A stretch of DNA of 64,000 nt, from NCBI GenBank assembly GCA_012455605.1, contig GCA_012455605.1_3618.1. One strand, written 5' to 3'. Source of the DNA: a phage. The stretch's first letter is position 1, and the number at the start of each line of letters is the position of its first letter. The notes beneath the pieces are model-generated. The model was not told the origin of the DNA and searched no databases. It was given only the letters and a program-made list of their open reading frames with translations. Positions 14,896 to 28,144 of this stretch are shown piece by piece. The translations under genes were made by a program, and so were the position numbers.

Positions 14896-14920
14896 CAGCT
14901 GACTCTTGAGGTGGTATAGT
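14892..14920 (+). promoter_or_regulatory. sigma70-like promoter (TTGACA-N17-TATAGT)
   Basis: Consensus hexamers and spacing. Confidence 0.5.
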
Positions 14921-15146
14921 CACCACAACAATTGAGAGAGGGAGCACTATGGAGACTAAAATCTTAATTCTAGCTGTGATAGATACAACCGAAGGGGCTG
15001 TGTTCGAATCTGCAGGAGGGTATTTCTACCTACCCTACGGAAAAAGAACTGCCGAACCGGGTAAAGATTCAATCATCAAAGTGTTCCCGTGTGCTTTCTG
15101 GCTGGAGATTCTGGTATAAGATTGCAGAAGATTTGGGAGAGAATTA

Positions 15147-15340
15147 TGAGAAACAAGAAAGAACTTTACTCTGGTGAGTGGATCAACGATCAACAGGTGG
15201 GAGAGGTAACCTGCTTCCGATGTTTTACCAGGTACAATCTTAAAACTGCACCAAAAAGTGTTCCAAAGACTGACGGTTATTACATAAAAGAACCTCATTG
15301 CCCAAAATGTAAATGCCGATTGTACTGGAGCAATCTGTAA
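15147..15340 (+). CDS. small Cys-rich protein (CxxC...CxxC)
   Basis: Start moved to MRNKKE; CFRC and CPKCKC pairs suggest a zinc ribbon. Confidence 0.4.
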
Positions 15341-15344
15341 AAGA

Positions 15345-15372
15345 TTGACATCTGAAAACTGCAGTGTATAAT
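15345..15372 (+). promoter_or_regulatory. sigma70-like promoter (TTGACA-N16-TATAAT)
   Basis: Consensus hexamers. Confidence 0.55.
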
Positions 15373-15403
15373 ATACGCATAAACTAACAGAGAGCGATGT
15401 ATT

Positions 15404-15595
15404 ATGGTAATTTTTAACCGGGATGGTATCATAGTTAGACAGCACCCGTTCCTTGAATACTATCAAATTGAGCAATGGTGCTACGGGGATTGCAGTCACT
15501 CTTATGGGCAAAGTTGGGGATATCGCACAGTTTTTGAATCAACAGACCTTGACAAAGTAAGACAGAAAGTTTTAGAACTTATTAACAACAAGTGA
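15404..15595 (+). CDS. hypothetical protein
   Basis: 63 aa ORF downstream of a promoter. Confidence 0.4.
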   Translation: MVIFNRDGIIVRQHPFLEYYQIEQWCYGDCSHSYGQSWGYRTVFESTDLDKVRQKVLELINNK

Positions 15596-15605
15596 GTATC
15601 GTGCC

Positions 15606-15938
15606 ATGGTAACATTGGAAAGACGTAAAGCTATCGCCGCCACACTGGCAGACATCTTTTGGGATTGCAACTTAAAAGATACTCGAAATTGTGGCGCATC
15701 TGTAGATGTATTATTCCCACGGCCCACCATTGTTGCAATGGGAAACCTGTTAAACGTAGTGTACGGAGCATGGGACAAAGAAGGTGGATTCTATATCTGG
15801 CAACCTGACTACGGAGCCTGGAAAGAGGTAAGGGGTGCGGATGACTTTGGGCCTACAGTTGCTAAGATGGATGGCTGGGAAATTTATGTTGGAAACGACA
15901 TGAAGCTGAAAGGCGAGATTGTTTACTGGTTACCTTAA
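15606..15938 (+). CDS. hypothetical protein
   Basis: 110 aa ORF. Confidence 0.45.
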   Translation: MVTLERRKAIAATLADIFWDCNLKDTRNCGASVDVLFPRPTIVAMGNLLNVVYGAWDKEGGFYIWQPDYGAWKEVRGADDFGPTVAKMDGWEIYVGNDMKLKGEIVYWLP

Positions 15939-15958
15939 GAAAGCGCAGGAGATAAAGT

Positions 15959-16204
15959 ATGAGCAAAGGGTGGACATTTGTAGACGGCGTTAAAAACATG
16001 CCTCTTGGAAAGTATATCGTAGCCATGGCAGATGAGAATGGCAATGTGGATTTCGGAGCTTGCGAGGTTGTTCTTGCAGGATCTGGTAACTATGTGGACA
16101 AAACCGGGATAATTAACGGTCAGTTCTACTTTGATCACAACCCTGTTGTAGCGTATATGGCTATGCCAGAGTTCAAGTTCCCAAAGGAGGGTGCAGATGT
16201 TTAA
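15959..16204 (+). CDS. hypothetical protein
   Basis: 81 aa, AGGAGA ribosome-binding site. Confidence 0.45.
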   Translation: MSKGWTFVDGVKNMPLGKYIVAMADENGNVDFGACEVVLAGSGNYVDKTGIINGQFYFDHNPVVAYMAMPEFKFPKEGADV

Positions 16205-16739: not shown

Positions 16740-17300
16740 TATCAAGTATAAGGGGGATTTCTAAAATGGATTTCCTCCTTTTGATATTTCACCGGGCCGG
16801 ATATTTTAAAATTCTTAGAAAATCAGAAAATGGATCGAAAACTAAAATGGATTTTTCAGAGTAGGCGCGACAAGCTGAATAACTCATCCTATCGTTTGCA
16901 CCATATTCCAGGCCACCATTATAGATTTCCCACACATGCTAACCTCTCTCTACTAGAACTTCCTCCACTTACCCTTGACCTTCTATGGTAACAATCTAAC
17001 CGCTATCTTGAAGTTGCGGTGCAGCTTTCCAGGTACTCGATCTACTTTTCATTTCAGGGCTTGGATTTTCTGAAAATTTTTCTCGATAAATTTCTCAGTA
17101 CTCGATCTGTTTTTCGTTTTCTGAATCGGATTTTCTGGAAATCGTTCCGGCTCTCAACCTGAAATTTTGGGGACGAAATCGATTTTTCGTTTTCAGAAAT
17201 GGATTTTTAAAATTTCTATATGGGAATATTTTAGTGGATACTATTTTATAGTAAATTGTTACGGAGGGTAATTAGCGTGCTAATTAAATTTATTAAATGC
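16740..17300. repeat. non-coding direct-repeat region (AAATGGATTT and TACTCGATCT-T-rich units)
   Basis: At least 4 copies of AAATGGAT(T/C), 2-3 of (G)TACTCGATCT(A/G)TTTT, 2 of GGATTTTCTG(G)AAA; no credible ORF. Confidence 0.6.
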
Positions 17301-17735: not shown

Positions 17736-17912
17736 ATGGAAGGTAATATGATCCCCCTGGAAAATGTAGCTATTAATGACGCTGAGGCTATCGCCCTGGT
17801 TGAAAAGGCTATGGCGGGAGCGTTGGAATATAAAGAAGAGTACGAAAAAATGATGGTTAACCTGGCAGGGGTGGCGGCTGGAGAATTCCGCCCAAAAAAT
17901 AATTTTAACTAA
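17736..17912 (+). CDS. small hypothetical protein (58 aa)
   Basis: ORF below the track cutoff; GAGGAGG 7 nt upstream of the ATG. Confidence 0.4.
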   Translation: MEGNMIPLENVAINDAEAIALVEKAMAGALEYKEEYEKMMVNLAGVAAGEFRPKNNFN

Positions 17913-17915
17913 TGG

Positions 17916-17944
17916 TTGACAGCTCGGACAGTTCTTGTTATTCT
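17916..17944 (+). promoter_or_regulatory. sigma70-like promoter (TTGACA-N17-TATTCT)
   Basis: Consensus -35, acceptable -10. Confidence 0.4.
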
Positions 17945-17997
17945 TATCCTCACAAGGTGAACAACACCACACTAATTAACAGAGAGGATAAAAAATC

Positions 17998-18195
17998 ATG
18001 AACGCCTACGGAATCAAAGTACGTCGCAGCACTCGCCAGGTGGTCACCGATCAAATGGTTTGCCAGGTGGATGTAACCATCAACAACGGGCAAGGCCTTT
18101 ATAAATTTCGTCGCGGTCATAGCTATACCCTGCAACAGCTTAATCGTTGCGCCCTGACAAAAGGCCAGATCAACCACTGGTTTAATAAAAAATAA
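17998..18195 (+). CDS. hypothetical protein
   Basis: 65 aa basic protein. Confidence 0.45.
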   Translation: MNAYGIKVRRSTRQVVTDQMVCQVDVTINNGQGLYKFRRGHSYTLQQLNRCALTKGQINHWFNKK

Positions 18196-18198
18196 ATA

Positions 18199-18227
18199 TT
18201 GACATATAGTCTGACACAAAATATACT
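18199..18227 (+). promoter_or_regulatory. sigma70-like promoter (TTGACA-N17-TATACT)
   Basis: Consensus hexamers. Confidence 0.55.
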
Positions 18228-18259
18228 GAAATCACAAAAGACACTAAGAGGATAAAATC

Positions 18260-18658
18260 ATGAAAACCACAACCTTTAATTTTGATAATGCCGACTTCTC
18301 TTTTTCTGATGTCAAGAACTGCCGCCGTGATCGTGGATTTTACAAGGCTTATAATCTGGTTGGCCTGGACGATGATAATAATTTGCACGAAGTAGCGGAG
18401 ATCCGGTACTATGCCGCCGCCAGCGGTAACACTAACTATTGCGTTTTTTGGATACACGACAACAAGAACAATAAGTACGGTTATACTGGCGGCAAGGCGA
18501 GCGGTCACGGTTATGATAAAGCTAACGCAGCACTTGAGAGCGCATTAAATGCTATGGGGATCACTGCCAACGGCTGGATCTATGAAGAAGAGTTTTTGTC
18601 GGCACTTGCTGACCATCTAGGCTATAAAAAGCACATTGTAACATGCGCCCACGAATAA
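18260..18658 (+). CDS. hypothetical protein
   Basis: 132 aa. Confidence 0.5.
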   Translation: MKTTTFNFDNADFSFSDVKNCRRDRGFYKAYNLVGLDDDNNLHEVAEIRYYAAASGNTNYCVFWIHDNKNNKYGYTGGKASGHGYDKANAALESALNAMGITANGWIYEEEFLSALADHLGYKKHIVTCAHE

Positions 18659-18665
18659 AAAATCA

Positions 18666-18693
18666 TTGACACGCTGCAAAATTTAAGTAAACT
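18666..18693 (+). promoter_or_regulatory. sigma70-like promoter (TTGACA-N16-TAAACT)
   Basis: Consensus -35; TAAACT -10 as in the 45 bp repeat family. Confidence 0.45.
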
Positions 18694-18741
18694 AGGCACA
18701 AAAGGCGGGAATGTTTCCCGCCAACACGAAGGAAAAAGATC

Positions 18742-19146
18742 ATGAATAAGAACGTACGCCGCATCATGAACGAACTGGCAAACGATGAAAAAATTATTGA
18801 CATGCATTTAGTCAACATTTGCCGCCGTTGTGTAACATATAACAACCGCGCCGCAAAAGCGCGTGAGATGAACGCAAAAGGCACCTTAAAGCCATTCCAG
18901 GTGGTGGTAAAGGCCATTAAAGATGTAACTAATACGGCAAACCAGGTACAGGGGAACACCAACGAGAGTACCAATATTGATCCGGCTTACATCATGAAAC
19001 GGATCCGGACCTGCAAGAACAAAGAGCAAGTGTATAATGTCATAGACTGGTTGGATTCTATGGGCGATGTGGTTTACAATAGGTTTTCTGCAGCTATCGA
19101 GATCCAGCTTGACAGGTTGGACGGTAAAGTACTGAAAACTTACTAA
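18742..19146 (+). CDS. hypothetical protein
   Basis: 134 aa. Confidence 0.5.
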   Translation: MNKNVRRIMNELANDEKIIDMHLVNICRRCVTYNNRAAKAREMNAKGTLKPFQVVVKAIKDVTNTANQVQGNTNESTNIDPAYIMKRIRTCKNKEQVYNVIDWLDSMGDVVYNRFSAAIEIQLDRLDGKVLKTY

Positions 19147-19147
19147 G

Positions 19148-19193
19148 TTTATTTTTAGATGGCCTTGACTCCAGGGCCATCAATAAAGTAAAC
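19148..19193 (+). repeat. 45 bp intergenic repeat, copy 1 (T-tract, GATGGCC hairpin around TTGACT, TAAACT)
   Basis: Near-identical copies at 19769 and 23509, structural variant at 20104. Confidence 0.6.
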
Positions 19194-19426
19194 TAATCTC
19201 AACTAAGCGAAAAAGGGGGGCTTTAAGATGAGCACTACACGCCAATACACAAAGGTAACTATTATCGTTTGCGTTGTCGGTTACATCCTGGCGCAAATGT
19301 TAATGAGTAGCGCTAACAGTTTTGCAAAATTTTTCTTAAATTTTTAATTGACAAACTAACTTAGATCGATATACTTAAACACGTAAACGGGAAAACTTCC
19401 CAGAGCACACAAAAGGAGAAAACACC

Positions 19427-19768
19427 ATGACTACTATGACCGCCGCAGAAAAAGCTATGCAGATCGCCGCGCTGAAAAAACAGATCGCAGACCTTGAGAA
19501 TAAGATCGATAACTTTGAAATCGACGAGGACAAGTACGACGAAAACTATGATGAATGGTTAGACGAGATCTACGGCGAAATCATGATCGGAAACATTTCT
19601 TTTCTTCCGTCGCGTATCCTCAAGGAGCTAGATCCTATCGCTTACCGCTGCGGATTTAGCGACTACATCGACAGCCTGGATATTGAGGACGATGAAGAAT
19701 ACCAGGAATTACAGACAGAGCTCGAAGAAGTGAAAGAAGAGCTTGCAGAACTGGAAGAAAACGAGTAA
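19427..19768 (+). CDS. highly acidic small protein
   Basis: 113 aa, very rich in D/E (DIEDDEEYQELQTELEEVKEELAELEENE). Confidence 0.5.
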   Translation: MTTMTAAEKAMQIAALKKQIADLENKIDNFEIDEDKYDENYDEWLDEIYGEIMIGNISFLPSRILKELDPIAYRCGFSDYIDSLDIEDDEEYQELQTELEEVKEELAELEENE

Positions 19769-19815
19769 ATTTATTTTTAGATGGCCTTGACTTCAGGGCC
19801 ATCAATAAAGTAAAC
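19769..19815 (+). repeat. 45 bp intergenic repeat, copy 2
   Basis: ATTTATTTTTAGATGGCCTTGACTTCAGGGCCATCAATAAAGTAAAC. Confidence 0.6.
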
Positions 19816-19857
19816 TTTAGACTGTTAACACTTAACCAATACAGAGGAGTTAAAACC

Positions 19858-20103
19858 ATGGCCGCACTAATTACCAAATATTATGCCCCTACCAACACCA
19901 AAAGCGCCCGTATCATGGTAAAAGGCTTCGGACGTAAAAAGGTTTACACCTGGGATTATGCCTTAGACACGGAAGACAACTACACCAACGCGATGACCGA
20001 TTTTATTAATGATCTGAACACGCGGATCTTAACAAATTATAAAATTACCGACATTGCTTATATAGGTGAAGGCGGGATCTGTTTTGTAGGCATTGTGAAA
20101 TAG
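19858..20103 (+). CDS. hypothetical protein
   Basis: 81 aa. Confidence 0.45.
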   Translation: MAALITKYYAPTNTKSARIMVKGFGRKKVYTWDYALDTEDNYTNAMTDFINDLNTRILTNYKITDIAYIGEGGICFVGIVK

Positions 20104-20150
20104 TTATTTTTTCGGTGGTCCTGGCTGCAGGGCCATCTATAAAGATAATT
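20104..20150 (+). repeat. 45 bp intergenic repeat, divergent copy 3 (compensated hairpin GGTCCTG/CAGGGCC)
   Basis: Same T-tract/hairpin/ATAAAG layout with a different but still pairing stem. Confidence 0.5.
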
Positions 20151-20177
20151 TATTAACACAATGAAAGGAGAAAGTAC

Positions 20178-20531
20178 ATGATCAGCGGGGCAAGTTTTAT
20201 TATTGGCGCTATTGCTACGGCTTTAATTGTAAACAAGATCCAATCTAAAAACGAAAAAGAGAGCAACGCGCTCACAGAATACCCATTTTGGGTATTCAAC
20301 GACAATGAAGACTACATTATCAAGTACAAGAATGAGAAGGGCGACCAGGTAACACCGCGACCGATCCCAGCTTACAAGATGCAAGAAACACTATACCGCC
20401 TAAAGGCTGGAGGCGCAAAAATCGTAGACTTTTGGGGATATGATTGCAAGGATCAGGAGGTTATAAAACGGCGTATCCGGGCGATTCAGGCAAATATTGA
20501 AGTTAGCAAGGGGGGAATATATGAAGATTAA
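20178..20531 (+). CDS. hypothetical protein with N-terminal hydrophobic segment
   Basis: 117 aa; N-terminus ISGASFIIGAIATALIV. Confidence 0.45.
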   Translation: MISGASFIIGAIATALIVNKIQSKNEKESNALTEYPFWVFNDNEDYIIKYKNEKGDQVTPRPIPAYKMQETLYRLKAGGAKIVDFWGYDCKDQEVIKRRIRAIQANIEVSKGGIYED

Positions 20532-20718
20532 TTTTGAGAAGATTGTAAAGCGATCTCATGATTCCGAAGAGTTGCCGGAACGCCGCCAGCGCAACAATAA
20601 ATTGAATAAGCCAAAAAGATTTGGGAAGATCTGGCGGAATCATTATGATCGTAAATTGCCGGGCCTACTTTTGGAACGTGAACGACAGGCGGAACGATAC
20701 CGCCACAAAGGCAAATAA
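20521..20718 (+). CDS. small basic protein
   Basis: Start moved to the ATG at 20521 with AAGGGGGG upstream; Arg/Lys-rich. Confidence 0.4.
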   Translation: MKINFEKIVKRSHDSEELPERRQRNNKLNKPKRFGKIWRNHYDRKLPGLLLERERQAERYRHKGK

Positions 20719-20726
20719 CAACCAAC

Positions 20727-20755
20727 GCCCCGCCATTGTGCGGGGCTTTTTATTT
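20727..20755 (+). terminator. rho-independent terminator (GCCCCGC-CATTGT-GCGGGGC then TTTTTATTT)
   Basis: Perfect 7 bp GC stem followed by a T-tract. Confidence 0.7.
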
Positions 20756-20899
20756 CTATCCTACGAATAGCGCCCCTGGTTGGCCCTGTAAGCGCCAAAA
20801 AGGCCCCACCTATGCAATCGCCCCCCTTTAACCTGAAAACATCGCTTAGGGCCGTTTTATGGCGTTAAAAATATCATTGACAGTGATTTTATTTAAAGC

Positions 20900-20927
20900 T
20901 TGACATCTTAAACAGGTTAGCTATACT
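20900..20927 (+). promoter_or_regulatory. sigma70-like promoter (TTGACA-N16-TATACT)
   Basis: Consensus hexamers; a second TTGACA lies 25 bp upstream. Confidence 0.5.
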
Positions 20928-20959
20928 AACCACATCAAAGAGAGAAAGGAGTAAACGCC

Positions 20960-21220
20960 ATGCGTAAATTAAAAAATTTTGATAAAGTTGATGTTGTCCT
21001 GAATAATTTTTACTACTGCAACAACAAGGCCATTTGGTGGCGTGATAGTTCCACCGATAAAGTCAAGGCGCGCTTTCTCCAGGGGCACTGGCAAGGCCGC
21101 CCAGTGATTAAAATCATGGGGCAATTGGTAGCGTTTAAAAATTGCCGCCGTGTTGATGACGTTGAGGAGATTTTAAACATTTTGCGCCACAATAATTTAA
21201 AAAATAGTGTTGACAAGTAA
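20960..21220 (+). CDS. hypothetical protein
   Basis: 86 aa. Confidence 0.45.
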   Translation: MRKLKNFDKVDVVLNNFYYCNNKAIWWRDSSTDKVKARFLQGHWQGRPVIKIMGQLVAFKNCRRVDDVEEILNILRHNNLKNSVDK

Positions 21221-21237
21221 ATCTCAATAAGTATAAT
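21210..21237 (+). promoter_or_regulatory. sigma70-like promoter (TTGACA-N16-TATAAT)
   Basis: Perfect hexamers overlapping the upstream stop codon. Confidence 0.55.
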
Positions 21238-21294
21238 TAAACACACAGGCGGGAAAACTTACCGCCACTAACAAAGAAAACAGGAGAAAATATC

Positions 21295-21918
21295 ATGACC
21301 ACCGTTAACATTACCACAGGTTACAATTTATCTTTCGACGTGCTGACCGACGAACAAAAAGAAAAAGCCATTGAAATGGTACGCGAAAGAGAAGAACACA
21401 GCGGGGATGACTTTTTTGCAGAAAGTGTAATTGAACACTACAAAGAATATATCTTTCCAGAGTACGGCCTTGAAGATACCGAAGTACATTGGTCCGGTTT
21501 TTGGTGCCAGGGTGACGGCGCGTCAATCAGTGCTGAAAACGTGGATTTAGAAAAATTTTTGCGTAAAGTAAAGGCCCTGACCAAGTTCCGATCAATTCGT
21601 CACTTGTTCGGCACAATGCACGATGGCGAGTTATCAGCCAGTGTTGAACGCGACAAGTACAGCCATTACAGCCATGAAAACACTGTAAGCGGGTACATTG
21701 ATACCACTTGGCTAGATCTGACCGCCAAACAAGAAAACAAAGTGGAAGACCTGGAAGAACTGATCACCGAGACGGTACGGGAGCTATCCCGCAAGGTTTA
21801 CGTAGACCTGGAGGAGGCCTATCTAGAACAGTTCACCGCAGAAAACCTGATCGGCCTTATCGAGGCCAATGATTGGCGGTTTGATGTCGATGAATATGGT
21901 GAGATGACTTTTTCATAA
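21295..21918 (+). CDS. hypothetical protein
   Basis: 207 aa acidic protein. Confidence 0.5.
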   Translation: MTTVNITTGYNLSFDVLTDEQKEKAIEMVREREEHSGDDFFAESVIEHYKEYIFPEYGLEDTEVHWSGFWCQGDGASISAENVDLEKFLRKVKALTKFRSIRHLFGTMHDGELSASVERDKYSHYSHENTVSGYIDTTWLDLTAKQENKVEDLEELITETVRELSRKVYVDLEEAYLEQFTAENLIGLIEANDWRFDVDEYGEMTFS

Positions 21919-21926
21919 ATAAAGTG

Positions 21927-21954
21927 TTGCAATAACCTAAAAACCTGCTATATT
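21927..21954 (+). promoter_or_regulatory. sigma70-like promoter (TTGCAA-N16-TATATT)
   Basis: Near-consensus hexamers. Confidence 0.4.
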
Positions 21955-22008
21955 AAAACTCAAGGGGGCAAGACGTTTGCCCCCACACAAAACAAAGAGG
22001 AAAACATC

Positions 22009-22389
22009 ATGAAAAACACTACTAAAGCTATTGACACCGTTATGTTTAACCTGGTTACATTCCGTGAAGATATGAAAGATCTTCCACGTGAAACAGTGTG
22101 CGACCATATCGAAAACTATCGCAAACTAATCAAAGAGTTGCCTTTAAAACGTGACCAGTATGCGGCTAACGCTATGCTTAACGCCATGATCAAAAAGATG
22201 ATTCAGTGTGATTTAACTCTGGCCTATGATTATGCAGGTGGTCGTTTTGCAGTATACAATCAGCCCGTGCCTGGTATGAGCACCACCGAAGAATTGCACG
22301 CGTTAAATCTGAAACAAGATGTATGGGATAACATGCCCCGCGTGGTGGTGTGGGCAGAAAGCGGAAAGATTTACGGCGATAATTTTTAA
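22009..22389 (+). CDS. hypothetical protein
   Basis: 126 aa. Confidence 0.5.
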   Translation: MKNTTKAIDTVMFNLVTFREDMKDLPRETVCDHIENYRKLIKELPLKRDQYAANAMLNAMIKKMIQCDLTLAYDYAGGRFAVYNQPVPGMSTTEELHALNLKQDVWDNMPRVVVWAESGKIYGDNF

Positions 22390-22398
22390 TCAGGCAAC

Positions 22399-22426
22399 AG
22401 GCGGCATATTTGCCGCCTTATTGTTA
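22399..22426 (+). terminator. rho-independent terminator (AGGCGGCA-TATT-TGCCGCCT then TATTGTT)
   Basis: 8 bp stem; its position argues that the downstream gene starts at 22454. Confidence 0.5.
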
Positions 22427-22453
22427 AACAGAACTGCAAAAGAGGTACATAGA

Positions 22454-22825
22454 ATGGAATTTATTATTTTGGCTGTAGTAGTTGCCTTGTTCAACGCCTG
22501 GATCGCTGGCAAGATAGGTAGATCCGCTTTTCTATGGTTTGTTATATCTATTTTCCTGGGAGTGGTTGCAACTATTGTATTGGTTATCCTTGCAATTGTT
22601 GACAAGGGGAATAATAGAAAGGGTAAAGTGTTTTCCGACCTGTATGACGCACAAACGTTTGTCAACGCCTATTATAGTGATCTTCCAGTCTCCCTACGCT
22701 GCAGCCTGGCACAACAGGTTTTTGATGAGGCTAAAACCAGAGACCAAGCCCATGAGATATGTTTAACTGAGGCGGATCGCCTATTTGAGAGGAATAGAAA
22801 ATATGTGGACCAGCCGTTTAAATAA
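22454..22825 (+). CDS. putative membrane protein
   Basis: Start moved to MEFIIL; two hydrophobic segments. Confidence 0.45.
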   Translation: MEFIILAVVVALFNAWIAGKIGRSAFLWFVISIFLGVVATIVLVILAIVDKGNNRKGKVFSDLYDAQTFVNAYYSDLPVSLRCSLAQQVFDEAKTRDQAHEICLTEADRLFERNRKYVDQPFK

Positions 22826-22935
22826 CGCCACGTTAATTAATCCCTTTAGTGAAGATTTGAAGCCAGCCGCCTGGCGTGACGGATTCAATAACGAACGCTT
22901 TATTTTCAGGCCTGATCTTGAGGAATTTTATAACA

Positions 22936-23061
22936 ATGGATCGAACAACAGCGGAGATAATTTTTCTTGTGGTGTGCGTGGTGATAGGACTCCTGGGGGC
23001 CATTGTAAACCACGTAACTGCTAACAGGAGGGAAGGGGGAGACGATGACAACCAAGGATAA
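22936..23061 (+). CDS. small putative membrane protein
   Basis: MDRTTAEIIFLVVCVVIGLLGAIV; start choice uncertain and it conflicts with the overlapping ORF 22785-23024. Confidence 0.3.
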   Translation: MDRTTAEIIFLVVCVVIGLLGAIVNHVTANRREGGDDDNQG

Positions 23062-23168
23062 GCCCCGCACCGATAAGGCGCGCCGTGCTATGGTATGGCT
23101 TGAGATCATCGCCCTTGAAATATTGTTAGGCGTAGGGATGTATTTTATCGCTGTAAGTAACTGATAAC

Positions 23169-23212
23169 GGCCCCCGATCATGGGGCCTATCTTTAAAAAA
23201 AAAAAAATTTTT
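23169..23212 (+). terminator. GC hairpin (GGCCCC-GATCAT-GGGGCC) followed by an A13 run then T5
   Basis: Stem-loop plus a 13 nt homopolymeric A tract. Confidence 0.4.
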
Positions 23213-23223
23213 CTTCCGGGGTG

Positions 23224-23251
23224 TTGCAATCCGGTCCGGAATGTGGATAAT
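23224..23251 (+). promoter_or_regulatory. sigma70-like promoter (TTGCAA-N16/17-GATAAT)
   Basis: Near-consensus hexamers. Confidence 0.4.
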
Positions 23252-23306
23252 AACAATCAACGGGGAAACATCCCCACCAACACAAAAACCAGAAAGGAGA
23301 AACAAA

Positions 23307-23507
23307 ATGAGCAACAATATCCGCGTTATTAACTTCAAAAAAGAAGAAAAAATTGCCGTGCTGATTGACGGTCAAGAAATCTTCAAGGGCGACTATGAAG
23401 ATCATCAAACGGCGATTAGTATCACTCGCGTGATTGGTTATCATAATTTCTACCCCCAAGGCGCTGAAGCAGCAGTTAAACGAATCAAAGAGATTGTAGG
23501 CCTGTAA
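23307..23507 (+). CDS. hypothetical protein
   Basis: Start moved to MSNNIRV with AAGGAGA upstream. Confidence 0.45.
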   Translation: MSNNIRVINFKKEEKIAVLIDGQEIFKGDYEDHQTAISITRVIGYHNFYPQGAEAAVKRIKEIVGL

Positions 23508-23508
23508 A

Positions 23509-23553
23509 ATTTATTTTTAGATGGCCTTGACTTCAGGGCCATCGATAAAGTAA
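23509..23553 (+). repeat. 45 bp intergenic repeat, copy 4
   Basis: ATTTATTTTTAGATGGCCTTGACTTCAGGGCCATCGATAAAGTAAAT. Confidence 0.6.
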
Positions 23554-23600
23554 ATTTAAACCCTGTTAAAATACCACGCAGTTAACAAGGAGTGATAGAC

Positions 23601-23900
23601 ATGTTTATCCAGGCTAATAATCTTTATTTCTTTGATGGTCAGATCGTAGATGGTGTGGAAGTGGAGATCACCGGGTGCCCTGGCGGTCAGGCTATGACTT
23701 TTCGGAATAATGCCTTTGATGATTCTCATATAGTTATGAGAATGGAAGTTACGAAGCTGGACGACAAGAAAACACTCATTGACTATTCCGTGAAAGATCA
23801 TCCAGACTACCACATGATCTATGGTGATTTGTGCATTGTTGACCGTGACAAGGTGAACGGCATTGTGATCGCTATTGTGAACGATGTTTTCTCAAACTAA
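23601..23900 (+). CDS. hypothetical protein
   Basis: Start moved to MFIQANN with AAGGAG upstream. Confidence 0.45.
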   Translation: MFIQANNLYFFDGQIVDGVEVEITGCPGGQAMTFRNNAFDDSHIVMRMEVTKLDDKKTLIDYSVKDHPDYHMIYGDLCIVDRDKVNGIVIAIVNDVFSN

Positions 23901-23917
23901 TTTCAACAGGTCATTTT

Positions 23918-24268
23918 ATGAAAGTCAAACTATATTACCTTAATGAGCTTAACCCCCTTGCCCAGGTCCGCGCCCTGGCTAATACCTTGATTTGTGAGAA
24001 ATCTGTATATTGTGTTGAGCTTAACGCCATGCGTGAACGTCTCAAAGGTGGTTACTTTGACATCCATGCTGCAATCAACGGCCTGAATATGGAATTTATC
24101 CGCTTACGTAACAGCAGCCGGAATCTGGCAAGAATGGAACAAGATCCGGCCCACCTTCGTAAGCTGGTTATTGAAAATCATCTGATGTTCAATGCCGAGG
24201 GTGATTATTACCATTTTCAACGAAAACGTTGGTACCGTGGCGGCAATACAGGCAAGAATGCAAAATAA
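23918..24268 (+). CDS. hypothetical protein
   Basis: 116 aa. Confidence 0.45.
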   Translation: MKVKLYYLNELNPLAQVRALANTLICEKSVYCVELNAMRERLKGGYFDIHAAINGLNMEFIRLRNSSRNLARMEQDPAHLRKLVIENHLMFNAEGDYYHFQRKRWYRGGNTGKNAK

Positions 24269-24304
24269 GGCCCCTAGCAGGTCCTGCAGCGATATAATCA
24301 CATA

Positions 24305-24337
24305 AAGGCTATGCGGTTGCATGGCCTTTATTATTTT
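24305..24337 (+). terminator. rho-independent terminator (AAGGCTATGC-GGTT-GCATGGCCTT then TATTATTTT)
   Basis: Stem-loop followed by a T-rich tract. Confidence 0.5.
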
Positions 24338-24384
24338 AGCGTTACAGCGGCCCCAAGGCGCTTAAAAATTTTTTAAAGAAGTAC

Positions 24385-24413
24385 TTGCATCAAGCCCTAC
24401 AATATGGATAATA
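24385..24413 (+). promoter_or_regulatory. sigma70-like promoter (TTGCAT-N17-GATAAT)
   Basis: Near-consensus hexamers. Confidence 0.4.
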
Positions 24414-24469
24414 GGACGTGTCAGGGGGGGAGGCCCCAATCATTAACCGGATAGATAGGAGTTAAAACC

Positions 24470-24754
24470 ATGGCTATTGTTACCGCTGGCGATGTAGTAG
24501 AAATGGAAGCAAAATACTTAAAAGCGGGTATGCATATCCTACGCAACGATCTTGAACTAGTCCTGACAATGGTTGACTATAACCCAGGGCAAGATTATCC
24601 AAGCATCGACTACTTTTTTGAGTATGTTGATGAAGAGTTGAAAGAGGATGAGGCCTATTGCGGTGAGTTCTGCAACTTCTTTTGCCCTGATGAGGTTGTA
24701 AAAGTTATCTATCAACCTGGCGTACCTTTCCCGCTGCACGCTATCAATAAATAA
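24470..24754 (+). CDS. hypothetical protein
   Basis: 94 aa acidic protein. Confidence 0.45.
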   Translation: MAIVTAGDVVEMEAKYLKAGMHILRNDLELVLTMVDYNPGQDYPSIDYFFEYVDEELKEDEAYCGEFCNFFCPDEVVKVIYQPGVPFPLHAINK

Positions 24755-24809
24755 ACCTGGCGGGGCCGAAAAGGCCCCCAATTATGAAAATAAAGAGAGG
24801 CAAATCATC

Positions 24810-25043
24810 ATGATGGAACAAATTAAACGCGCCGAGGCTATTAATGGCAACGTGATCTATTTTGTCAGCAAAAACGAAAAAGGCGTACCATATGCGGCAG
24901 TAATAGTACAACCTGACGGCGATTATTGGTTTACTGTGTACGGCGCTTATTCTTTTGGGCGTCCAGTGCATGATAAAATTTTGAAAGTAGCGAACCCTAC
25001 CGGGAAGAATATCACAGCAGAAAAATTTTTTGAAAATAGTTGA
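24810..25043 (+). CDS. hypothetical protein
   Basis: 77 aa. Confidence 0.45.
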   Translation: MMEQIKRAEAINGNVIYFVSKNEKGVPYAAVIVQPDGDYWFTVYGAYSFGRPVHDKILKVANPTGKNITAEKFFENS

Positions 25044-25067
25044 CATGACCATATAAGACTGTAATAT
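25040..25067 (+). promoter_or_regulatory. sigma70-like promoter (TTGACA-N16-TAATAT)
   Basis: Consensus -35. Confidence 0.45.
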
Positions 25068-25118
25068 ATAAATCAAAGGGGGCAACGAACCCCACCAACT
25101 ACAAAGAGGATAAAAATC

Positions 25119-25298
25119 ATGGCTATTATTGCAAAGACTGAGATCGTAGGCTTAGATTCTATTCTCCTCGCATATGAGGAAGCTATAGAAATGTATGTGG
25201 TTTCCTATGGTGAGTATATCCGTGAATATAAATCTATTGATCTGGCTTTTGAATGTTATATCCGCCAGGTTAATAAAGCGTACGATGATTATCGTTAA
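25119..25298 (+). CDS. small hypothetical protein (59 aa)
   Basis: ORF below the track cutoff; AAGAGGA upstream; fills the gap between two promoters. Confidence 0.4.
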   Translation: MAIIAKTEIVGLDSILLAYEEAIEMYVVSYGEYIREYKSIDLAFECYIRQVNKAYDDYR

Positions 25299-25304
25299 AA
25301 TAGT

Positions 25305-25333
25305 TTGACAACAGCCATCTTACAAAGCATAAT
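25305..25333 (+). promoter_or_regulatory. sigma70-like promoter (TTGACA-N17-CATAAT)
   Basis: Consensus -35. Confidence 0.45.
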
Positions 25334-25385
25334 ACATAAGGCGGTGGAATGGTCCGCCACCTGGAACAAAGAAGAGGTAAACACC

Positions 25386-25631
25386 ATGAAAAGCAATAAA
25401 GGTTATAACGGTTACAAAAACAAAACTCATTGGAATGTAAGCCTTTGGATTAATAACGACGAGTCATTGTACCGGTTGGCCCAAGACTTTATTAACGCCA
25501 ATGCTAATCGTAATGATGCGGCGCGGGATATGATGCTTTTTCTGGAGCTAACCGGACAAGATAAGACCCCGGACGGCTTCAAGTACAGCACTACGGCGAT
25601 CCGTGCCGCGATGGTTGGAATGAAACACTAA
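25386..25631 (+). CDS. hypothetical protein
   Basis: Start moved to MKSNKGY with AGAGG upstream. Confidence 0.45.
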   Translation: MKSNKGYNGYKNKTHWNVSLWINNDESLYRLAQDFINANANRNDAARDMMLFLELTGQDKTPDGFKYSTTAIRAAMVGMKH

Positions 25632-26129
25632 AAGCACATAGCCGCCTTACCCTGGGGCCGTGGTAGCGGCCCCATGAATAAGGTTACTAACAGAAGAGAA
25701 TAAACACTATGAAACAGAAATTAATCGATGCAGTGATCTTGGTTATTGCCCTGGGTATTGGCCTGATTGCAACCATGGCTAATGTGATCTTGTCTTCCAA
25801 CGGTATCGGGTGAGGTTGGCAAATGATCACTAACAAAACAGGCAAAACAGAATTTTTACGCAACTTACAGATCGGCAAGCCTGAGATCTGGCATTGCACT
25901 AAAACACCACGTGACGAAATGAAAGACTTCACCGCCACGCTACAACGGGTAAAGATATCTATCACGCAGAAAAAGGCCTTACTAGTGGTGGAAGGGGAGA
26001 TCCCCCAAACCGTTGTTATAGTTGAGCGTACAGCATAGTTTAATTTATACCGATACCCGAAAATTAACCAACAAAGCATAAACAGGCGGTTACCGCCGCA
26101 TTAAACGTAGCAGAAAGAGGCTAGACACA

Positions 26130-26414
26130 ATGAAAAAGATTATCGCAGTGGTTGCCCTGGTTGTTGGACTTAATGCGCCTGCAATGGCTAAAGAGCTGGC
26201 AAAAGAGGTTGATCTAACGGATATCCATGCCGTCAATCAAATCGGGGTTACTTATCGCTTATGCCTTGCCGCTAAAACTTTTAATGACGGCACAACAGAG
26301 TACTACGGATTCGAGGGTATCCGGTGCGGTGAGCTTGCTCGCGACCTTAAGGAAGATCCAGACCTGGAGGATCTGCCCATAACCGTGAACGGGAAAACTT
26401 ACGTGAACCGTTAA
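26130..26414 (+). CDS. putative secreted/periplasmic protein
   Basis: Signal-peptide-like N-terminus MKKIIAVVALVVGLNAPAMA. Confidence 0.5.
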   Translation: MKKIIAVVALVVGLNAPAMAKELAKEVDLTDIHAVNQIGVTYRLCLAAKTFNDGTTEYYGFEGIRCGELARDLKEDPDLEDLPITVNGKTYVNR

Positions 26415-26563
26415 CCATGAGAAAGATAATTATCACCTTGGGGATCGTGGCGGGATCGCTGGCGCTCTTTCCCCTTATGGTTAGATATGTGCTGATCGGT
26501 ATTGTCCTGGCAGTCAGTGATCTATTGGAAACGGTTGGCACCTTGTTTTAAAGAGCGGTAAAA

Positions 26564-26755
26564 ATGAATATCGAACAAGTTAGAAAGGTATTGGCGGTAC
26601 TGCGTTATCATAATCATAGAAAGGTTATAGACGATCCTGATTATGTTGATTCAAGTCTGGAAGAGGATACGCTACAAGCCATAAGTAACATGCAAGAATT
26701 GCTAAAGCGCATGACAGAGAAAAACCGACCGGACTACATAGGCGAAAAAATATAA
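26564..26755 (+). CDS. hypothetical protein
   Basis: 63 aa. Confidence 0.4.
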   Translation: MNIEQVRKVLAVLRYHNHRKVIDDPDYVDSSLEEDTLQAISNMQELLKRMTEKNRPDYIGEKI

Positions 26756-26770
26756 TATTTATAAACTACA

Positions 26771-26800
26771 AAACAGGGCTTGCTATGGTCCTGTTTTTTG
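26771..26800 (+). terminator. rho-independent terminator (AAAACAGGGC...GGTCCTGTTTT then TTTG)
   Basis: Stem-loop followed by a T-tract. Confidence 0.55.
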
Positions 26801-26815
26801 TTATACTTATTACAC

Positions 26816-26858
26816 GGCAGGCACCTGGCGACGGGTGGAGACAATCACCGGGCCTGCC
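26816..26858. other. conserved element, inverted copy (reverse complement of GGCAGGCCCGGTGATTGTCTCC) inside a GGCAGGC/GCCTGCC hairpin
   Basis: Exact 22 nt match to 17356-17377 on the opposite strand. Confidence 0.5.
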
Positions 26859-26965
26859 TGTCATATAAGAACTATAAAAACCGTTGACATCTGCCAGGTG
26901 GTGGGGTAACATTATCTTGAAGGGGCAAAAGTGCCCACACAACAACCAGAAGAGAGGAAAACATC

Positions 26966-27238
26966 ATGTCAAGCTGGATTAATCAAGAAGTCGAATCACG
27001 TTTTAATGCTATTTGGGATCTCATCGAAAAAGAGGACGGAACATCAAGCCCTTACCTCAATAATCTTGAATTCCATTTTGTGGAAGCGATGAACGCAGAA
27101 CATGATCACGAAGGTGGCGCGGATGATTTCGCTAAAGGTTATGGCTTTAACAATGCCAACGAAATGATCGAGGCGGTCGTACTCCAGGCTGAGGAAGATT
27201 ATCAATTAAAAACGCTTGAATTCTGCCGCCATAAGTAA
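26966..27238 (+). CDS. hypothetical protein
   Basis: 90 aa acidic protein, AGAGAGGA upstream. Confidence 0.45.
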   Translation: MSSWINQEVESRFNAIWDLIEKEDGTSSPYLNNLEFHFVEAMNAEHDHEGGADDFAKGYGFNNANEMIEAVVLQAEEDYQLKTLEFCRHK

Positions 27239-27298
27239 TAAGATAATGACACGGGCCAAAAGGCCCGCTAATCAGAACCGCATAAAGAGGTAAACATC

Positions 27299-27562
27299 AT
27301 GAAACGTCTTGATCAGCTCAAACTAGTTCAGTACATGGCCTACAAAGTTCTTGAAGTCCAAAAAGGTAGCAAAAAAGAGGTTTGCGAGAAAGCATATAAG
27401 ATCTTTACCCGTAAAAAAGATGATTGGATGTTACGCCAGACCAAAAAAGCCGATATCCTGGGGTACCTGGAAGAAGAGATCCGACTTGAAGAGCAAGAAG
27501 AGATCCGCCGCAGTGAAGCAGATTATCAGGCAGCTTGGGAAAACTGGATGAGTAACAAATAA
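27299..27562 (+). CDS. hypothetical protein
   Basis: 87 aa charged protein. Confidence 0.45.
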   Translation: MKRLDQLKLVQYMAYKVLEVQKGSKKEVCEKAYKIFTRKKDDWMLRQTKKADILGYLEEEIRLEEQEEIRRSEADYQAAWENWMSNK

Positions 27563-27628
27563 TACAACAAGTTGCACGATCAGGGGGCAATAAAGCCCCT
27601 TGATCACATAAAAATTATGCTATCCTTA

Positions 27629-27657
27629 TTGACAAGGATCGGCAGTTTTGCTATATT
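27629..27657 (+). promoter_or_regulatory. sigma70-like promoter (TTGACA-N17-TATATT)
   Basis: Consensus hexamers. Confidence 0.5.
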
Positions 27658-27706
27658 CTTTTTTGAAGGGAAGTTGTAAAAAAATTAACTAAGAGGTAAA
27701 AACACC

Positions 27707-28126: not shown

Positions 28127-28144
28127 TTTCTTAACTAAACTATC

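What the first reader, a model, noticed from the sequence alone, without database searches (positions are those of the whole stretch)
19148..23553. Family of four 45 bp intergenic elements with a compensated hairpin around a -35-like hexamer
Copies at 19148, 19769 and 23509 are near-identical (T-tract, GATGGCC-TTGACTTCAG-GGCCATC, AATAAAGTAAAC); the copy at 20104 has a different stem (GGTCCTG/CAGGGCC) that still pairs, indicating selection for structure. Each sits immediately after a stop codon. The T-tract precedes rather than follows the hairpin, so these are not canonical terminators; TTGACT-N18-TAAACT could make them UP-element promoters carrying an operator-like inverted repeat.
Basis: seen in the sequence. 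Interest (0 to 1): 0.5.

Follow-up and report, generated by a model that had tools for sequence, protein, structure and literature searches.

The report
Promoter-bearing RNA hairpin repeats between phage genes
Four copies of a 49-base element between early genes of an rV5-like E. coli phage fold, as RNA, into a conserved 20-base-pair hairpin, three of them also carrying a promoter-like sequence, and they mark where small gene cassettes are lost, gained and passed to another phage group; it is a new example of a known kind of phage regulatory cassette, not a new mechanism.

Summary
The window is an rV5-like phage (Vequintavirus). It holds exactly four copies, and no further copy was found in the rest of the rV5 genome.

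The whole element is therefore a 20-bp interrupted hairpin: a 10-bp AU lower stem starting in the upstream stop codon, a 2x3 internal loop, a 10-bp GC upper stem and a tetraloop.

Pairing is kept by G.U wobbles that work only on the coding strand, and by compensatory changes in four lower-stem pairs. This points to selection on an RNA structure, not on a protein operator.

Copies 1-3 rank among the best promoter-like sites in the window. The divergent copy at 20102 is not promoter-like. The hairpin is what all four share.

The repeats are recombination junctions. Three relatives lack the 622-bp cassette between copies 1 and 2. A phi92-like phage acquired the promoter-ORF-element cassette at 96% identity, with the element's -10 in register with the resident promoter's -10.

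Closest known kinds are the PeSL promoter/stem-loop cassettes of T4-like phages and, in architecture, the T7 early RNase III sites.

Best reading: a composite promoter plus an mRNA processing or stabilising hairpin. The processing step is inferred, not shown.

The parts
19146..19194 (+). Element copy 1. Lower stem 19146-19155 / 19185-19194; internal loop TA / AAT; upper stem 19158-19167 / 19172-19181; tetraloop ACTC. Promoter-like -35 TTGACT at 19165-19170 and -10 TAAACT at 19189-19194.
   Evidence: dG -25, z -6.6; 89.5 bits; promoter matrix rank 30 of 127,840.
19768..19816 (+). Element copy 2, with the same anatomy and tetraloop ACTT. -35 at 19787-19792 and -10 at 19811-19816. The base pair at the foot of the stem is an A.C mismatch in this copy.
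   Evidence: dG -20.9, z -5.9; 86.9 bits; rank 21.
20102..20150 (+). Element copy 4, the divergent one. Lower stem AGTTATTTTT / AAAGATAATT; upper stem GGTGGTCCTG / CAGGGCCATC with two G.U pairs; tetraloop GCTG. It has no credible -35 (CTGGCT).
   Evidence: + strand dG -22.4, z -5.0; - strand only -8.1, z -1.2; 79.8 bits; promoter score 0.8, rank 1977.
23508..23556 (+). Element copy 3, tetraloop ACTT. -35 at 23527-23532 and -10 TAAATT at 23551-23556. The pair at the foot of the stem is A-U, where copy 1 has G-C.
   Evidence: dG -24.7, z -6.4; 85.3 bits; rank 31.
19195..19816 (+). 622-bp variable cassette: the ORF193-like gene, promoter P192, the ORF192-like gene and one element copy. It is bounded by the direct repeats copy 1 and copy 2 and is absent from phiWec189, ECP26 and ime, which carry one hybrid element instead.
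   Evidence: gene tables; blastn: homology 18000-19194, then 19757 or 19770 onward; hybrid element with copy-1 5' flank and copy-2 3' flank.
19347..19814 (+). Segment found at 96% identity in the phi92-like phage KKE7M (Justusliebigvirus). It runs from promoter P192 through the ORF192-like gene to the 3' end of element copy 2.
19348..19375 (+). Promoter P192 (TTGACA-N16-TATACT), followed by a 5'UTR hairpin. It starts the predicted operon ORF192 - copy 2 - ORF191 - copy 4 - ORF190 - ORF189.
   Evidence: 11 of 12 matches; annotated P192 in rV5.
18666..18693 (+). Promoter-like site TTGACA-N16-TAAACT upstream of the ORF194-like gene, whose transcript would read into copy 1. It shares AAGTAAACT with the element.
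   Evidence: score 20.6.
20727..20746 (+). Canonical intrinsic terminator (GCCCCGC..GCGGGGC followed by TTTTTATTTC). It is the first terminator-like site downstream of copies 2 and 4, which places those copies inside one predicted operon.

Best explanation
The four elements are PeSL-like composite intergenic cassette boundaries of rV5-like phages. One 49-nt sequence is read in two ways.

(1) As RNA. Early transcripts that read through from upstream sigma70 promoters fold the element into a 20-bp interrupted hairpin: a 10-bp AU lower stem that begins in the upstream stop codon, a 2x3 internal loop, a 10-bp GC upper stem and a tetraloop. All four copies share this feature and it is the one under selection. 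Its most likely job is to punctuate the polycistronic early mRNA. Host RNase III would cleave at or near the internal loop, as at the T7 early sites. That would leave the GC hairpin as a 3' stabiliser on the upstream cistron and free the downstream one.

(2) As DNA. Copies 1-3 also carry a moderate sigma70 promoter: T-rich upstream region, TTGACT, an 18-bp spacer and TAAAYT. It can restart transcription about 35 nt before the next gene.

(3) As near-identical direct repeats that share their -10 region with ordinary early promoters, the elements are substrates for homologous recombination. This deletes, inserts and exports promoter-to-promoter gene cassettes.

Shown here: the structure, its strand bias and compensation, the promoter-likeness of three of the four copies, and the recombination junctions. 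Inferred: that the region is transcribed through, that RNase III cleaves it, and that the promoter fires.
For: Structure:
- All four copies fold identically on the + strand, with z from -5.0 to -6.6. The - strand folds worse, and for copy 4 not significantly.
- Across 41 distinct sequences from 16 sources, 98.9% of pair cells are paired. Shuffles give 93.6% and slid partners give 36-56%. Four lower-stem pairs change on both sides, and the covariation score is 0.220 against 0.129, with 0 of 500 shuffles reaching it.
- The three upper-stem differences of copy 4 all fall among the 4 of 10 5'-arm positions where a transition keeps pairing (my count; about 0.03 by chance).
- In copy-4 orthologues the candidate -10 decays from GATAAT to GATAGT to GACAGT while the 5' arm compensates. 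There, structure rather than promoter is what is preserved.

Operon position:
- Copies 2 and 4 lie between P192 (19348) and the first canonical terminator (20727). All copies sit between closely spaced same-strand ORFs.

RNase III likeness:
- T7 early sites fetched and folded here have the same plan: a lower stem starting at the upstream stop codon, an internal loop, a 9-10 bp GC-rich upper stem containing G.U, and a tetraloop.
- E. coli RNase III substrates are typically two helical turns long. Internal loops restrict cleavage to one strand and leave protective 3' hairpins (PMC1540722 and PMC3867540).
- The second and third pairs below the loop are U-A and U.G in copies 1-3, as in T7 R1.1. 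UA/UG is the canonical distal box.

Promoter: (PhagePromoter annotation in phage Gotham).

Recombination. Variants shared between copies of one genome indicate concerted evolution.

Independent analogue:
- A non-homologous consensus promoter, TTGACA-N17-CATAAT, sits inside a 25-bp hairpin right after a stop codon in phi92- and phAPEC8-like phages.
- It is 100% paired in 7 sequences, two pairs changed on both sides, and the rest of the variation within the hairpin lies in the loop or keeps pairing.
Against: - There are no RNA-end data. Transcription through the elements, cleavage and initiation are all inferred.
- Relatives are 90-100% identical, with no intermediates. The covariation therefore rests on few events, and the copies undergo gene conversion.
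- The covariance-model alignment is fitted to the structure, which flatters the pair counts.
- A few orthologues carry C.A or A.C mismatches in the lower stem. One genome (Gotham, copy 1) has a deletion that destroys the upper stem.
- The register of the RNase III proximal and distal boxes is my reconstruction, because the paper's figures were not available.
- Copy 4 has C-G where copies 1-3 have the U.G of the presumed distal box.
- The ribosome terminating at the stop codon inside the lower stem would transiently melt that stem.
- The 18-bp spacer and the TAAACT -10 make at best a moderate promoter.
Confidence: 0.5

Rival explanations
1. RNA element only. The hairpin is an mRNA processing or stability signal, and the promoter resemblance of copies 1-3 is a relic of descent from a promoter, or an accident of AT-rich arms, with no initiation in vivo.
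For: Copy 4 keeps the hairpin without a promoter. An upstream promoter-like site precedes copies 1, 2 and 4, and no canonical terminator precedes any copy; upstream of copy 3 there are only a weak terminator-like hairpin (23169-23187) and a weak promoter-like site (23224-23251). The 18-bp spacer and weak -10 score below 11 of the 12 training promoters (13-15 against 17.7-24; the twelfth scores 13.7).
Against: TTGAC, including the two loop bases A and C, is invariant in 33 of the 34 distinct copy 1-3 sequences, while the other two loop bases vary freely. The -10 part is identical to that of ordinary promoters. In KKE7M the element replaces the only promoter in front of the resident gene's 5'UTR hairpin, in exact register.
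Confidence: 0.2
2. Transcription attenuator or terminator plus promoter, as proposed for the stem-loops of PeSLs. The hairpin would stop or reduce read-through from upstream, and each downstream gene would rely on the element's own promoter.
For: PeSL stem-loops were reported to lower downstream lacZ expression like a strong terminator (PMC2839356). In the window, a non-homologous element at 26770-26807 does combine a canonical terminator with a -35 in its loop.
Against: No U-run follows either the upper or the full hairpin on either strand. The 3' flank is AAUAAAG or UAAUCUC, UUUAGAC, UUAAACC and UUAUUAAC. ARNold-type annotations of rV5 and Alma do not call them. Copy 4 has no promoter to restart transcription for ORF190/189, and the canonical terminator of that operon lies further on at 20727.
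Confidence: 0.12
3. One reading: a sigma70/UP promoter whose inverted repeat is an operator for a phage or host dimeric DNA-binding regulator.
For: A 7-bp inverted repeat overlaps the -35 in copies 1-3. The 3' arm and ATAAAG are the same in nearly every copy.
Against: In copy 4 the left half-site differs at 2 of 7 positions (3 of the 10 positions of the 5' arm) while the right arm is unchanged. Every change keeps RNA-type wobble pairing rather than DNA symmetry. The pairing extends 10 bp further, into the T-tract and -10 region, with compensatory changes. Copy 4 has no promoter to regulate.
Confidence: 0.08
4. Functionless repeated palindrome: a small selfish or hitch-hiking repeat kept similar by gene conversion, whose only effect is to provide homology for recombination.
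For: There are only four copies, clustered within 4.4 kb. Variants are shared between copies of the same genome. Junctions of the deletion and of the transfer lie in the element.
Against: Copy 4 has diverged at about 13 of 49 positions, yet all six changed pairs still pair. Orthologues of copy 4 show stepwise compensation, A-U to G.U to G-C and U-A to C-G. All four copies are present in every Vequintavirus locus examined that retains the cassette; phiWec189, ECP26 and ime have three, and Gotham's copy 1 carries a deletion.
Confidence: 0.08

Closest known systems
PeSLs (promoter-early stem-loops) of T4-like phages RB49/phi1, T4/PST and KVP40/nt-1 (Arbiol et al. 2010, PMC2839356; Comeau et al. 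2014, PMC4122927)
   Same: Both are composite intergenic motifs. The upstream stop codon lies in an AT-rich stretch, followed by a sigma70-type early promoter, a stem-loop that can overlap the -35 and contains G-T pairs, then an SD and start codon. Both sit in a region of small ORFans. Gene cassettes are present or absent between two copies, leaving a single hybrid copy, and both mediate exchange between phages.
   Different: These elements occur in a different phage subfamily, and I found no published description of them (the rV5 paper and its supplements do not list them); one GenBank record carries an automatic promoter prediction over two copies. There are only four homologous copies rather than dozens of heterogeneous ones. 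The promoter is sub-consensus and absent from one copy. The stem-loop is a 20-bp two-part hairpin that engulfs the upstream T-rich region and the -10, and it shows compensatory evolution. Nothing suggests termination. Promoter activity, terminator activity and mini-circles were not testable here.
Phage T7 early RNase III processing signals (R0.3, R0.5, R1, R1.1, R1.3)
   Same: Both are families of similar hairpins between early cistrons of a polycistronic transcript, starting at the upstream stop codon. Both have an AU-rich lower stem, an internal loop, a 9-10 bp GC-rich upper stem with G.U pairs, and a tetraloop. Both have U-A/U.G next to the loop-closing pair (PMC1540722 and PMC3867540).
   Different: There is no sequence homology. 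The internal loop is smaller (2x3) and the lower stem longer and more regular, so cleavage of both strands is possible. The host promoter sits inside the hairpin rather than a phage promoter beside it. Cleavage is untested.
Promoter-in-hairpin element of phi92- and phAPEC8-like phages (KKE7M L022:4468-4529 and orthologues), found during this work
   Same: It sits immediately after a stop codon. The -35 lies at the top of the 5' arm and loop, and the -10 in the 3' arm of the lower stem. It has about 25 bp with an interruption, and pairing is kept by compensatory changes.
   Different: It is not homologous. It carries a consensus promoter (TTGACA-N17-CATAAT), an 8-nt loop, and one copy per genome. 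I found no published description of it either.

Membership tests
PeSL (promoter-early stem-loop cassette) | Sigma70-type early promoter (-35, -10, AT-rich upstream) inside the motif | tested here: inconclusive
   Copies 1-3 have TTGACT-N18-TAAAYT (9 of 12 matches) and rank 21-31 of 127,840 positions with a matrix built from the phage's own promoters. Copy 4 has CTGGCT-N17-GATAAT, score 0.8 and rank 1977. The feature is met by three copies and not by the fourth.
PeSL (promoter-early stem-loop cassette) | Stable stem-loop adjacent to or overlapping the promoter | tested here: met
   A 20-bp hairpin overlaps the -35, the spacer and the -10 in all four copies, with z from -5.0 to -6.6.
PeSL (promoter-early stem-loop cassette) | Begins at the stop codon of the upstream gene and ends with the SD and start codon of the next; lies among small ORFans of a plastic early region | tested here: met
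   Flanking ORFs are 39-134 aa hypothetical proteins.
PeSL (promoter-early stem-loop cassette) | Indels or replacements of gene cassettes between related phages with junctions inside the motifs | tested here: met
   The 622-bp cassette is absent from phiWec189, ECP26 and ime, which carry a hybrid element. The promoter-to-promoter cassette was inserted into the KKE7M promoter.
PeSL (promoter-early stem-loop cassette) | Demonstrated promoter and terminator/attenuator activity; mini-circle formation | not testable with these tools
   Requires reporter fusions and inverse PCR.
E. coli RNase III processing signal (T7 early type) | Double-helical hairpin of about two turns (about 20-22 bp) | tested here: met
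   10 + 10 bp separated by a 2x3 internal loop. The criterion comes from PMC1540722 and PMC3867540.
E. coli RNase III processing signal (T7 early type) | Internal loop or mismatch at the target site about 11 bp from the loop end, giving single-strand cleavage and a 3' hairpin | tested here: met
   The internal loop begins directly below the 10-bp upper stem, as in the T7 sites folded. This tests architecture only.
E. coli RNase III processing signal (T7 early type) | Favourable distal box (UA/UG) and no G-C pair at proximal-box positions 2 and 4 | tested here: inconclusive
   Copies 1-3 have U-A then U.G below the loop-closing pair, A-U at the presumed proximal-box position 2, and a mismatch at position 4. 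Copy 4 has C-G and G.U at the corresponding places. I inferred the register from the text of PMC1540722 and the R1.1 fold, because the figures were not available.
E. coli RNase III processing signal (T7 early type) | Cleavage by RNase III in vitro or rnc-dependent ends in vivo | not testable with these tools
   No transcript-end data for any Vequintavirus were found in the library.
Intrinsic (Rho-independent) terminator | GC-rich hairpin immediately followed by a U-run | tested here: not met
   The terminator scan does not call the elements on either strand. The 3' flanks are A-rich or mixed. They are not annotated as terminators in rV5 or Alma.
Operator for a dimeric DNA-binding protein | Two-fold symmetric half-sites conserved on both arms as double-stranded DNA | tested here: not met
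   The copy-4 class differs on the 5' arm only. Its changes keep G.U pairing on one strand and give C.A mismatches on the other.
Any curated RNA family (Rfam 15) | Match at the gathering threshold | tested here: not met
   No hit in the whole window.

The most novel reading that the evidence does not exclude
One 49-nt sequence acts as a portable gene-cassette punctuation mark with two overlapping codes. In DNA it is a host-type promoter. In read-through RNA it is an RNase III site whose cut falls a few nucleotides upstream of that promoter's start. Read-through and newly initiated mRNAs of the downstream gene would then get nearly the same 5' end, while the upstream mRNA gets a protective 3' hairpin. 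The same design evolved independently in phi92- and phAPEC8-like phages, and it travels between phage subfamilies together with the genes it delimits.
Probability: 0.2. Interest if true: 0.55.

Novelty: new member of a known kind. Interest (0 to 1): 0.35.

Why it matters
rV5-like phages are widely isolated therapy and biocontrol candidates, and their early regions are annotated almost entirely as hypothetical proteins with no transcript map. If confirmed, these elements would have four consequences:
- They would extend PeSL-type modular shuffling beyond T4-like phages, with a dated example of transfer between subfamilies (Vequintavirinae to Stephanstirmvirinae, 96% identity).
- They would give a concrete, testable case of a promoter embedded in a selected RNA hairpin.
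- They would predict where early polycistronic mRNAs are cut.
- They would offer natural, compact insulator/promoter parts for phage engineering.

The finding is an incremental addition to phage gene-regulation biology, not a new principle.

Tried and rejected
- Rfam scan of the whole window found nothing.
- The 'repeat_region' annotated in phage isim lies inside a CDS and is not this element.
- The rV5 genome paper and its supplementary promoter/terminator tables do not contain the element. The rV5 GenBank record annotates nothing there.
- Further copies or more distant relatives were sought for deeper covariation:
  - blastn against phages finds only Vequintavirus plus KKE7M.
  - E. coli genomes give no match.
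  - Pattern scans of IMG/VR and of metagenomes give only a few more Vequintavirus contigs. The other pattern hits are chance and fail the covariance model.
  - Homologues of the flanking proteins ORF191 and ORF185 jump from at least 90% to at most 47% identity with no conserved context.
- No transcriptome or transcript-end-mapping paper for a Vequintavirus was found.
- Canonical terminator was rejected because there is no U-run.
- Cruciform or Endo VII target was judged less likely. The minus strand of copy 4 would carry three C.A mismatches in the upper stem.
- Integron attC-like site was rejected from the sequence. The ends read GTTTA...TAAAC, the opposite order to the attC R''/R' cores. The copies are near-identical rather than similar only in structure, and ordinary homologous recombination explains the junctions. 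No integrase search was run.
- MITE-like element: no target-site duplication is evident, and the copies always abut a stop codon. This was not pursued further.
- nut/put-type antitermination sites were considered, but two copies lie 335 nt apart in one operon and neither is promoter-proximal. This was not pursued.

Full report
**Context**

The window is 95-96% identical to rV5-like E. coli phages (Vequintavirus: A6-1, APECc02, rV5_ev, FFH2). Genes run on the + strand from 1 to about 29,970 and on the - strand from about 30,390 to the end.

The finding lies in the early region, roughly 14-30 kb. This region consists of small hypothetical ORFs separated by short intergenic regions. Most of those regions hold a near-consensus sigma70 promoter followed 8-13 nt later by a GC-rich hairpin in the 5'UTR.

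**Observation**

- A covariance model built from the four copies was run with filters off. It finds only these four in the window, at 80-90 bits on the + strand. The same loci score 30-40 bits on the - strand, and the next hit scores 17.8 bits.
- The model finds nothing in the remaining ~74 kb of the rV5 genome.
- blastn finds the element in 121 phage records. All are Vequintavirus, with three blastn-detectable copies each, except one copy in the phi92-like phage KKE7M.
- It is absent from 5,426 E. coli genomes. In IMG/VR and metagenomes it occurs only on a few more Vequintavirus contigs.

**Anatomy**

The element is a single 49-nt hairpin made of:
- a lower stem AGUUUAUUUU/AAAGUAAACU of 10 bp, whose first base or bases belong to the upstream stop codon;
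- an internal loop UA/AAU;
- an upper stem GAUGGCCUUG/CAGGGCCAUC of 10 bp;
- a tetraloop ACUY.

Free energy is -21 to -25 kcal/mol, with z from -5.0 to -6.6, and none of 200 shuffles folds as well. The '-35' TTGACT spans the top of the 5' arm and the loop. The '-10' TAAACT is the end of the 3' arm.

**Is the structure selected, and on which strand?**

Copy 4 differs from copy 2 at about 13 of 49 positions. All six changed pairs still pair.
- Two lower-stem pairs are swapped on both sides (U-A/A-U to A-U/U-A).
- One lower-stem pair is G.U.
- The three upper-stem changes are all on the 5' arm (A to G, C to U, U to C). They give G.U, U.G and C-G.
- Only 4 of the 10 positions on that arm tolerate a transition. 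Three hits out of three has a chance of about 0.03. This is my count from the sequence.

On the - strand these same changes become C.A mismatches. Copy 4 then no longer folds significantly (-8.1 kcal/mol, z -1.2).

Across 53 hits (41 distinct sequences) from 16 sources:
- 98.9% of pair cells are paired, against 93.6% in shuffles and 36-56% with slid partners;
- four lower-stem pairs show changes on both sides, including U-A to C-G and A-U to G.U to G-C among copy-4 orthologues;
- the covariation score is 0.220 against 0.129, with 0 of 500 shuffles reaching it.

With metagenome copies added (48 distinct sequences), variation falls mainly in loop positions 3-4 (2-4 in the copy-4 class), one internal-loop base, and the covarying foot of the stem (one lower-stem column also shows uncompensated changes).

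Caveats:
- The relatives are at least 90% identical.
- Copies exchange variants within a genome. The loop variant ACAC and the GCTTATT variant, for example, are shared by copies in V18 and slur12.
- The alignment is fitted to the model.
- A few orthologues carry C.A mismatches.
- One genome has a deletion in copy 1.

**Promoter reading**

Evidence for a promoter in copies 1-3:
- The consensus scan gives 9 of 12 matches (TTGACT-N18-TAAAYT) for copies 1-3.
- A matrix trained on 12 of the phage's own strongest promoter-like sites ranks copies 1, 2 and 3 at 30th, 21st and 31st of 127,840 positions. Their scores are 13-15, against 17.7-24 for eleven of the training promoters and 13.7 for the twelfth. 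Copy 4 scores 0.8, rank 1977.
- The -10 part, AAGTAAACT, is shared with the ordinary promoter at 18666 and with promoters of phi92-like phages. UAB_1 has TTGCAA-N16-TAAACT preceded by the same AATAAAG.
- TTGAC is invariant in 33 of the 34 distinct copy 1-3 sequences, while the neighbouring loop bases vary.
- The automatic annotation of phage Gotham calls copies 2 and 3 promoters, using PhagePromoter.

Evidence that the promoter is not the shared feature:
- The rV5 paper lists 33 promoters and 20 terminators, but these elements are not among them.
- In copy-4 orthologues the candidate -10 drifts from GATAAT to GATAGT to GACAGT, in step with compensating changes on the other arm.

I conclude that a promoter is plausible for three copies but is not what the family shares.

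**Operon position**

- Copies 2 and 4 lie between promoter P192 (19348) and the first canonical terminator (20727).
- Copy 1 follows the ORF194-like gene, which is driven from the promoter at 18666.
- Copy 3 lies between the ORF179-like and ORF178-like genes.
- No copy is followed by a U-run.

The hairpin would therefore exist only in RNA that reads through from upstream. A transcript started at the element's own promoter would begin after it.

**Recombination**

- phiWec189, ECP26 and ime lack the ORF193-P192-ORF192 segment. They carry one hybrid element with the copy-1 5' flank and the copy-2 3' flank. The junction of the 622-bp deletion lies inside the repeat.
- KKE7M (Justusliebigvirus, a different subfamily) carries window 19347-19814 at 96% identity.
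- Relatives without that insert show how it entered. Phage muut has a plain promoter, TTGACA-AGATAACTAAAATCAG-TAAACT-ATATTCATTAA-hairpin. KKE7M has the resident -35 and spacer joined to the -10 of P192. At the other end, the element's TAAATT sits exactly where the resident TAAACT was. UAB_1 has a different ORF in the same slot, again flanked by promoters.

The exchanged unit therefore runs from -10 to -10. This is recombination between promoter sequences.

**Comparison with known systems**

PeSLs of T4-like phages are defined as an upstream stop codon in an AT-rich stretch, a sigma70 early promoter, a stem-loop that may overlap the -35 and contains G-T pairs, and an SD and start codon. They lie among ORFans, and cassette indels and exchange occur through recombination between copies (PMC2839356 and PMC4122927). 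Every sequence-level criterion is met here, except that one copy lacks the promoter. The activities could not be tested.

The PeSL stem-loop was interpreted as a terminator. Here the lack of any U-run argues against that.

The architecture instead matches the five T7 early RNase III signals, which I fetched and folded. They have a lower stem from the upstream stop codon, an internal loop, a 9-10 bp GC-rich upper stem with G.U pairs, and a tetraloop.

E. coli RNase III substrates typically span two helical turns. Internal loops limit cutting to one strand and leave protective 3' hairpins. An 11-bp distance to the loop is the minimum, and UA/UG is the optimal distal box. Copies 1-3 have U-A/U.G in the position that R1.1 has, and no G-C pair at the presumed inhibitory proximal-box positions. 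The register is my inference.

**Independent analogue**

In KKE7M and its phi92- and phAPEC8-like relatives, a non-homologous consensus promoter (TTGACA-N17-CATAAT) sits inside a 25-bp interrupted hairpin that starts right after a stop codon.
- Free energy is -27.5 kcal/mol, z -6.2.
- In seven phages with 84-100% identity, all 175 pair cells are paired.
- Two pairs changed on both sides (G-C to A-U).
- The remaining variation within the hairpin is in the loop or keeps pairing.

In the window itself, 26770-26807 is a canonical terminator whose loop holds a -35 (TTGCTA), followed by an extended -10. Embedding a promoter in a hairpin is thus a recurring design in these phages.

**Verdict**

The promoter idea is partly right, for three of the four copies. 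The operator idea is not supported.

The best-supported account is a PeSL-like composite. It consists of a selected RNA hairpin that most likely serves mRNA processing or stabilisation by RNase III (inferred), a moderate promoter in three copies (inferred), and a demonstrated role as a recombination junction for gene cassettes.

It is a new member of a known kind and is of moderate interest.

Noticed in passing
window 17900-27700 (e.g. 18666-18730, 19348-19408, 21210-21275, 21927-21990, 25040-25100, 25305-25370); also L022 (KKE7M) throughout: Most early intergenic regions follow one plan: a near-consensus sigma70 promoter, then 8-13 nt later a GC-rich hairpin without a U-run in the 5'UTR, then the SD. 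In the phi92-like phage the hairpin is a repeated family (GGCGGGAAATGGTTTCCCGCC). This is probably a 5'-end stabiliser or another PeSL subclass.
   Followed up: partly
window 26770-26807 (+): A canonical terminator hairpin (AAAACAGGGC-TTGCTATG-GTCCTGTTTT plus a T-run). Its loop holds a -35-like TTGCTA and its T-run is the spacer of an extended -10 (TGTTATACT). It is a true overlapping terminator/promoter, not homologous to the finding.
   Followed up: partly
L022:4468-4529 (KKE7M) and orthologues L095-L100: A non-homologous consensus promoter (TTGACA-N17-CATAAT) is embedded in a 25-bp interrupted hairpin directly after a stop codon. It is conserved in Justusliebigvirus and Phapecoctavirus with two compensatory G-C/A-U changes.
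   Followed up: yes
window 28127-29143: About 1 kb without ORFs, close to the point where the two transcription directions converge. It contains GTAAACAGTC four times, a 20-nt repeat twice and a 34-nt repeat twice. These look like iterons, so this may be an origin or a regulatory region. It probably corresponds to the 'non-coding' box of the rV5 map.
   Followed up: partly
window 17026-17207: Three direct repeats with 65-73 nt spacing (ATCT.TTTTC.TTT...GGATTTT) lie in a 334-nt non-coding gap. One of them overlaps a long hairpin at 17165-17198.
   Followed up: no
window 23200-23215: A run of 13 A followed by T5 lies in the intergenic region upstream of the ORF179-like gene, after a GC hairpin at 23169-23187.
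   Followed up: no
phage collection, records MG0656xx: Seventeen GenBank records named 'Campylobacter phage' with host C. jejuni are about 94% identical to E. coli rV5-like phages. Others match phi92-like phages. The host labels look doubtful.
   Followed up: no
L034 / L021 (rV5 ORFs 205, 206, 209, 210, 231); window about 14000-16000 and upstream: Several rV5 early ORFs are annotated as similar to hypothetical proteins of RB49, the T4-like phage in which PeSLs were defined. This hints at cassette traffic between these phage groups.
   Followed up: no
L002:4380-4445 (Gotham copy 1) and L030:5330-5402 (Alma copy 4): One genome has a 6-nt deletion that removes part of the upper-stem 3' arm. Another has single-base insertions on both arms. 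These are either real decay of individual copies or assembly errors at a hairpin.
   Followed up: no
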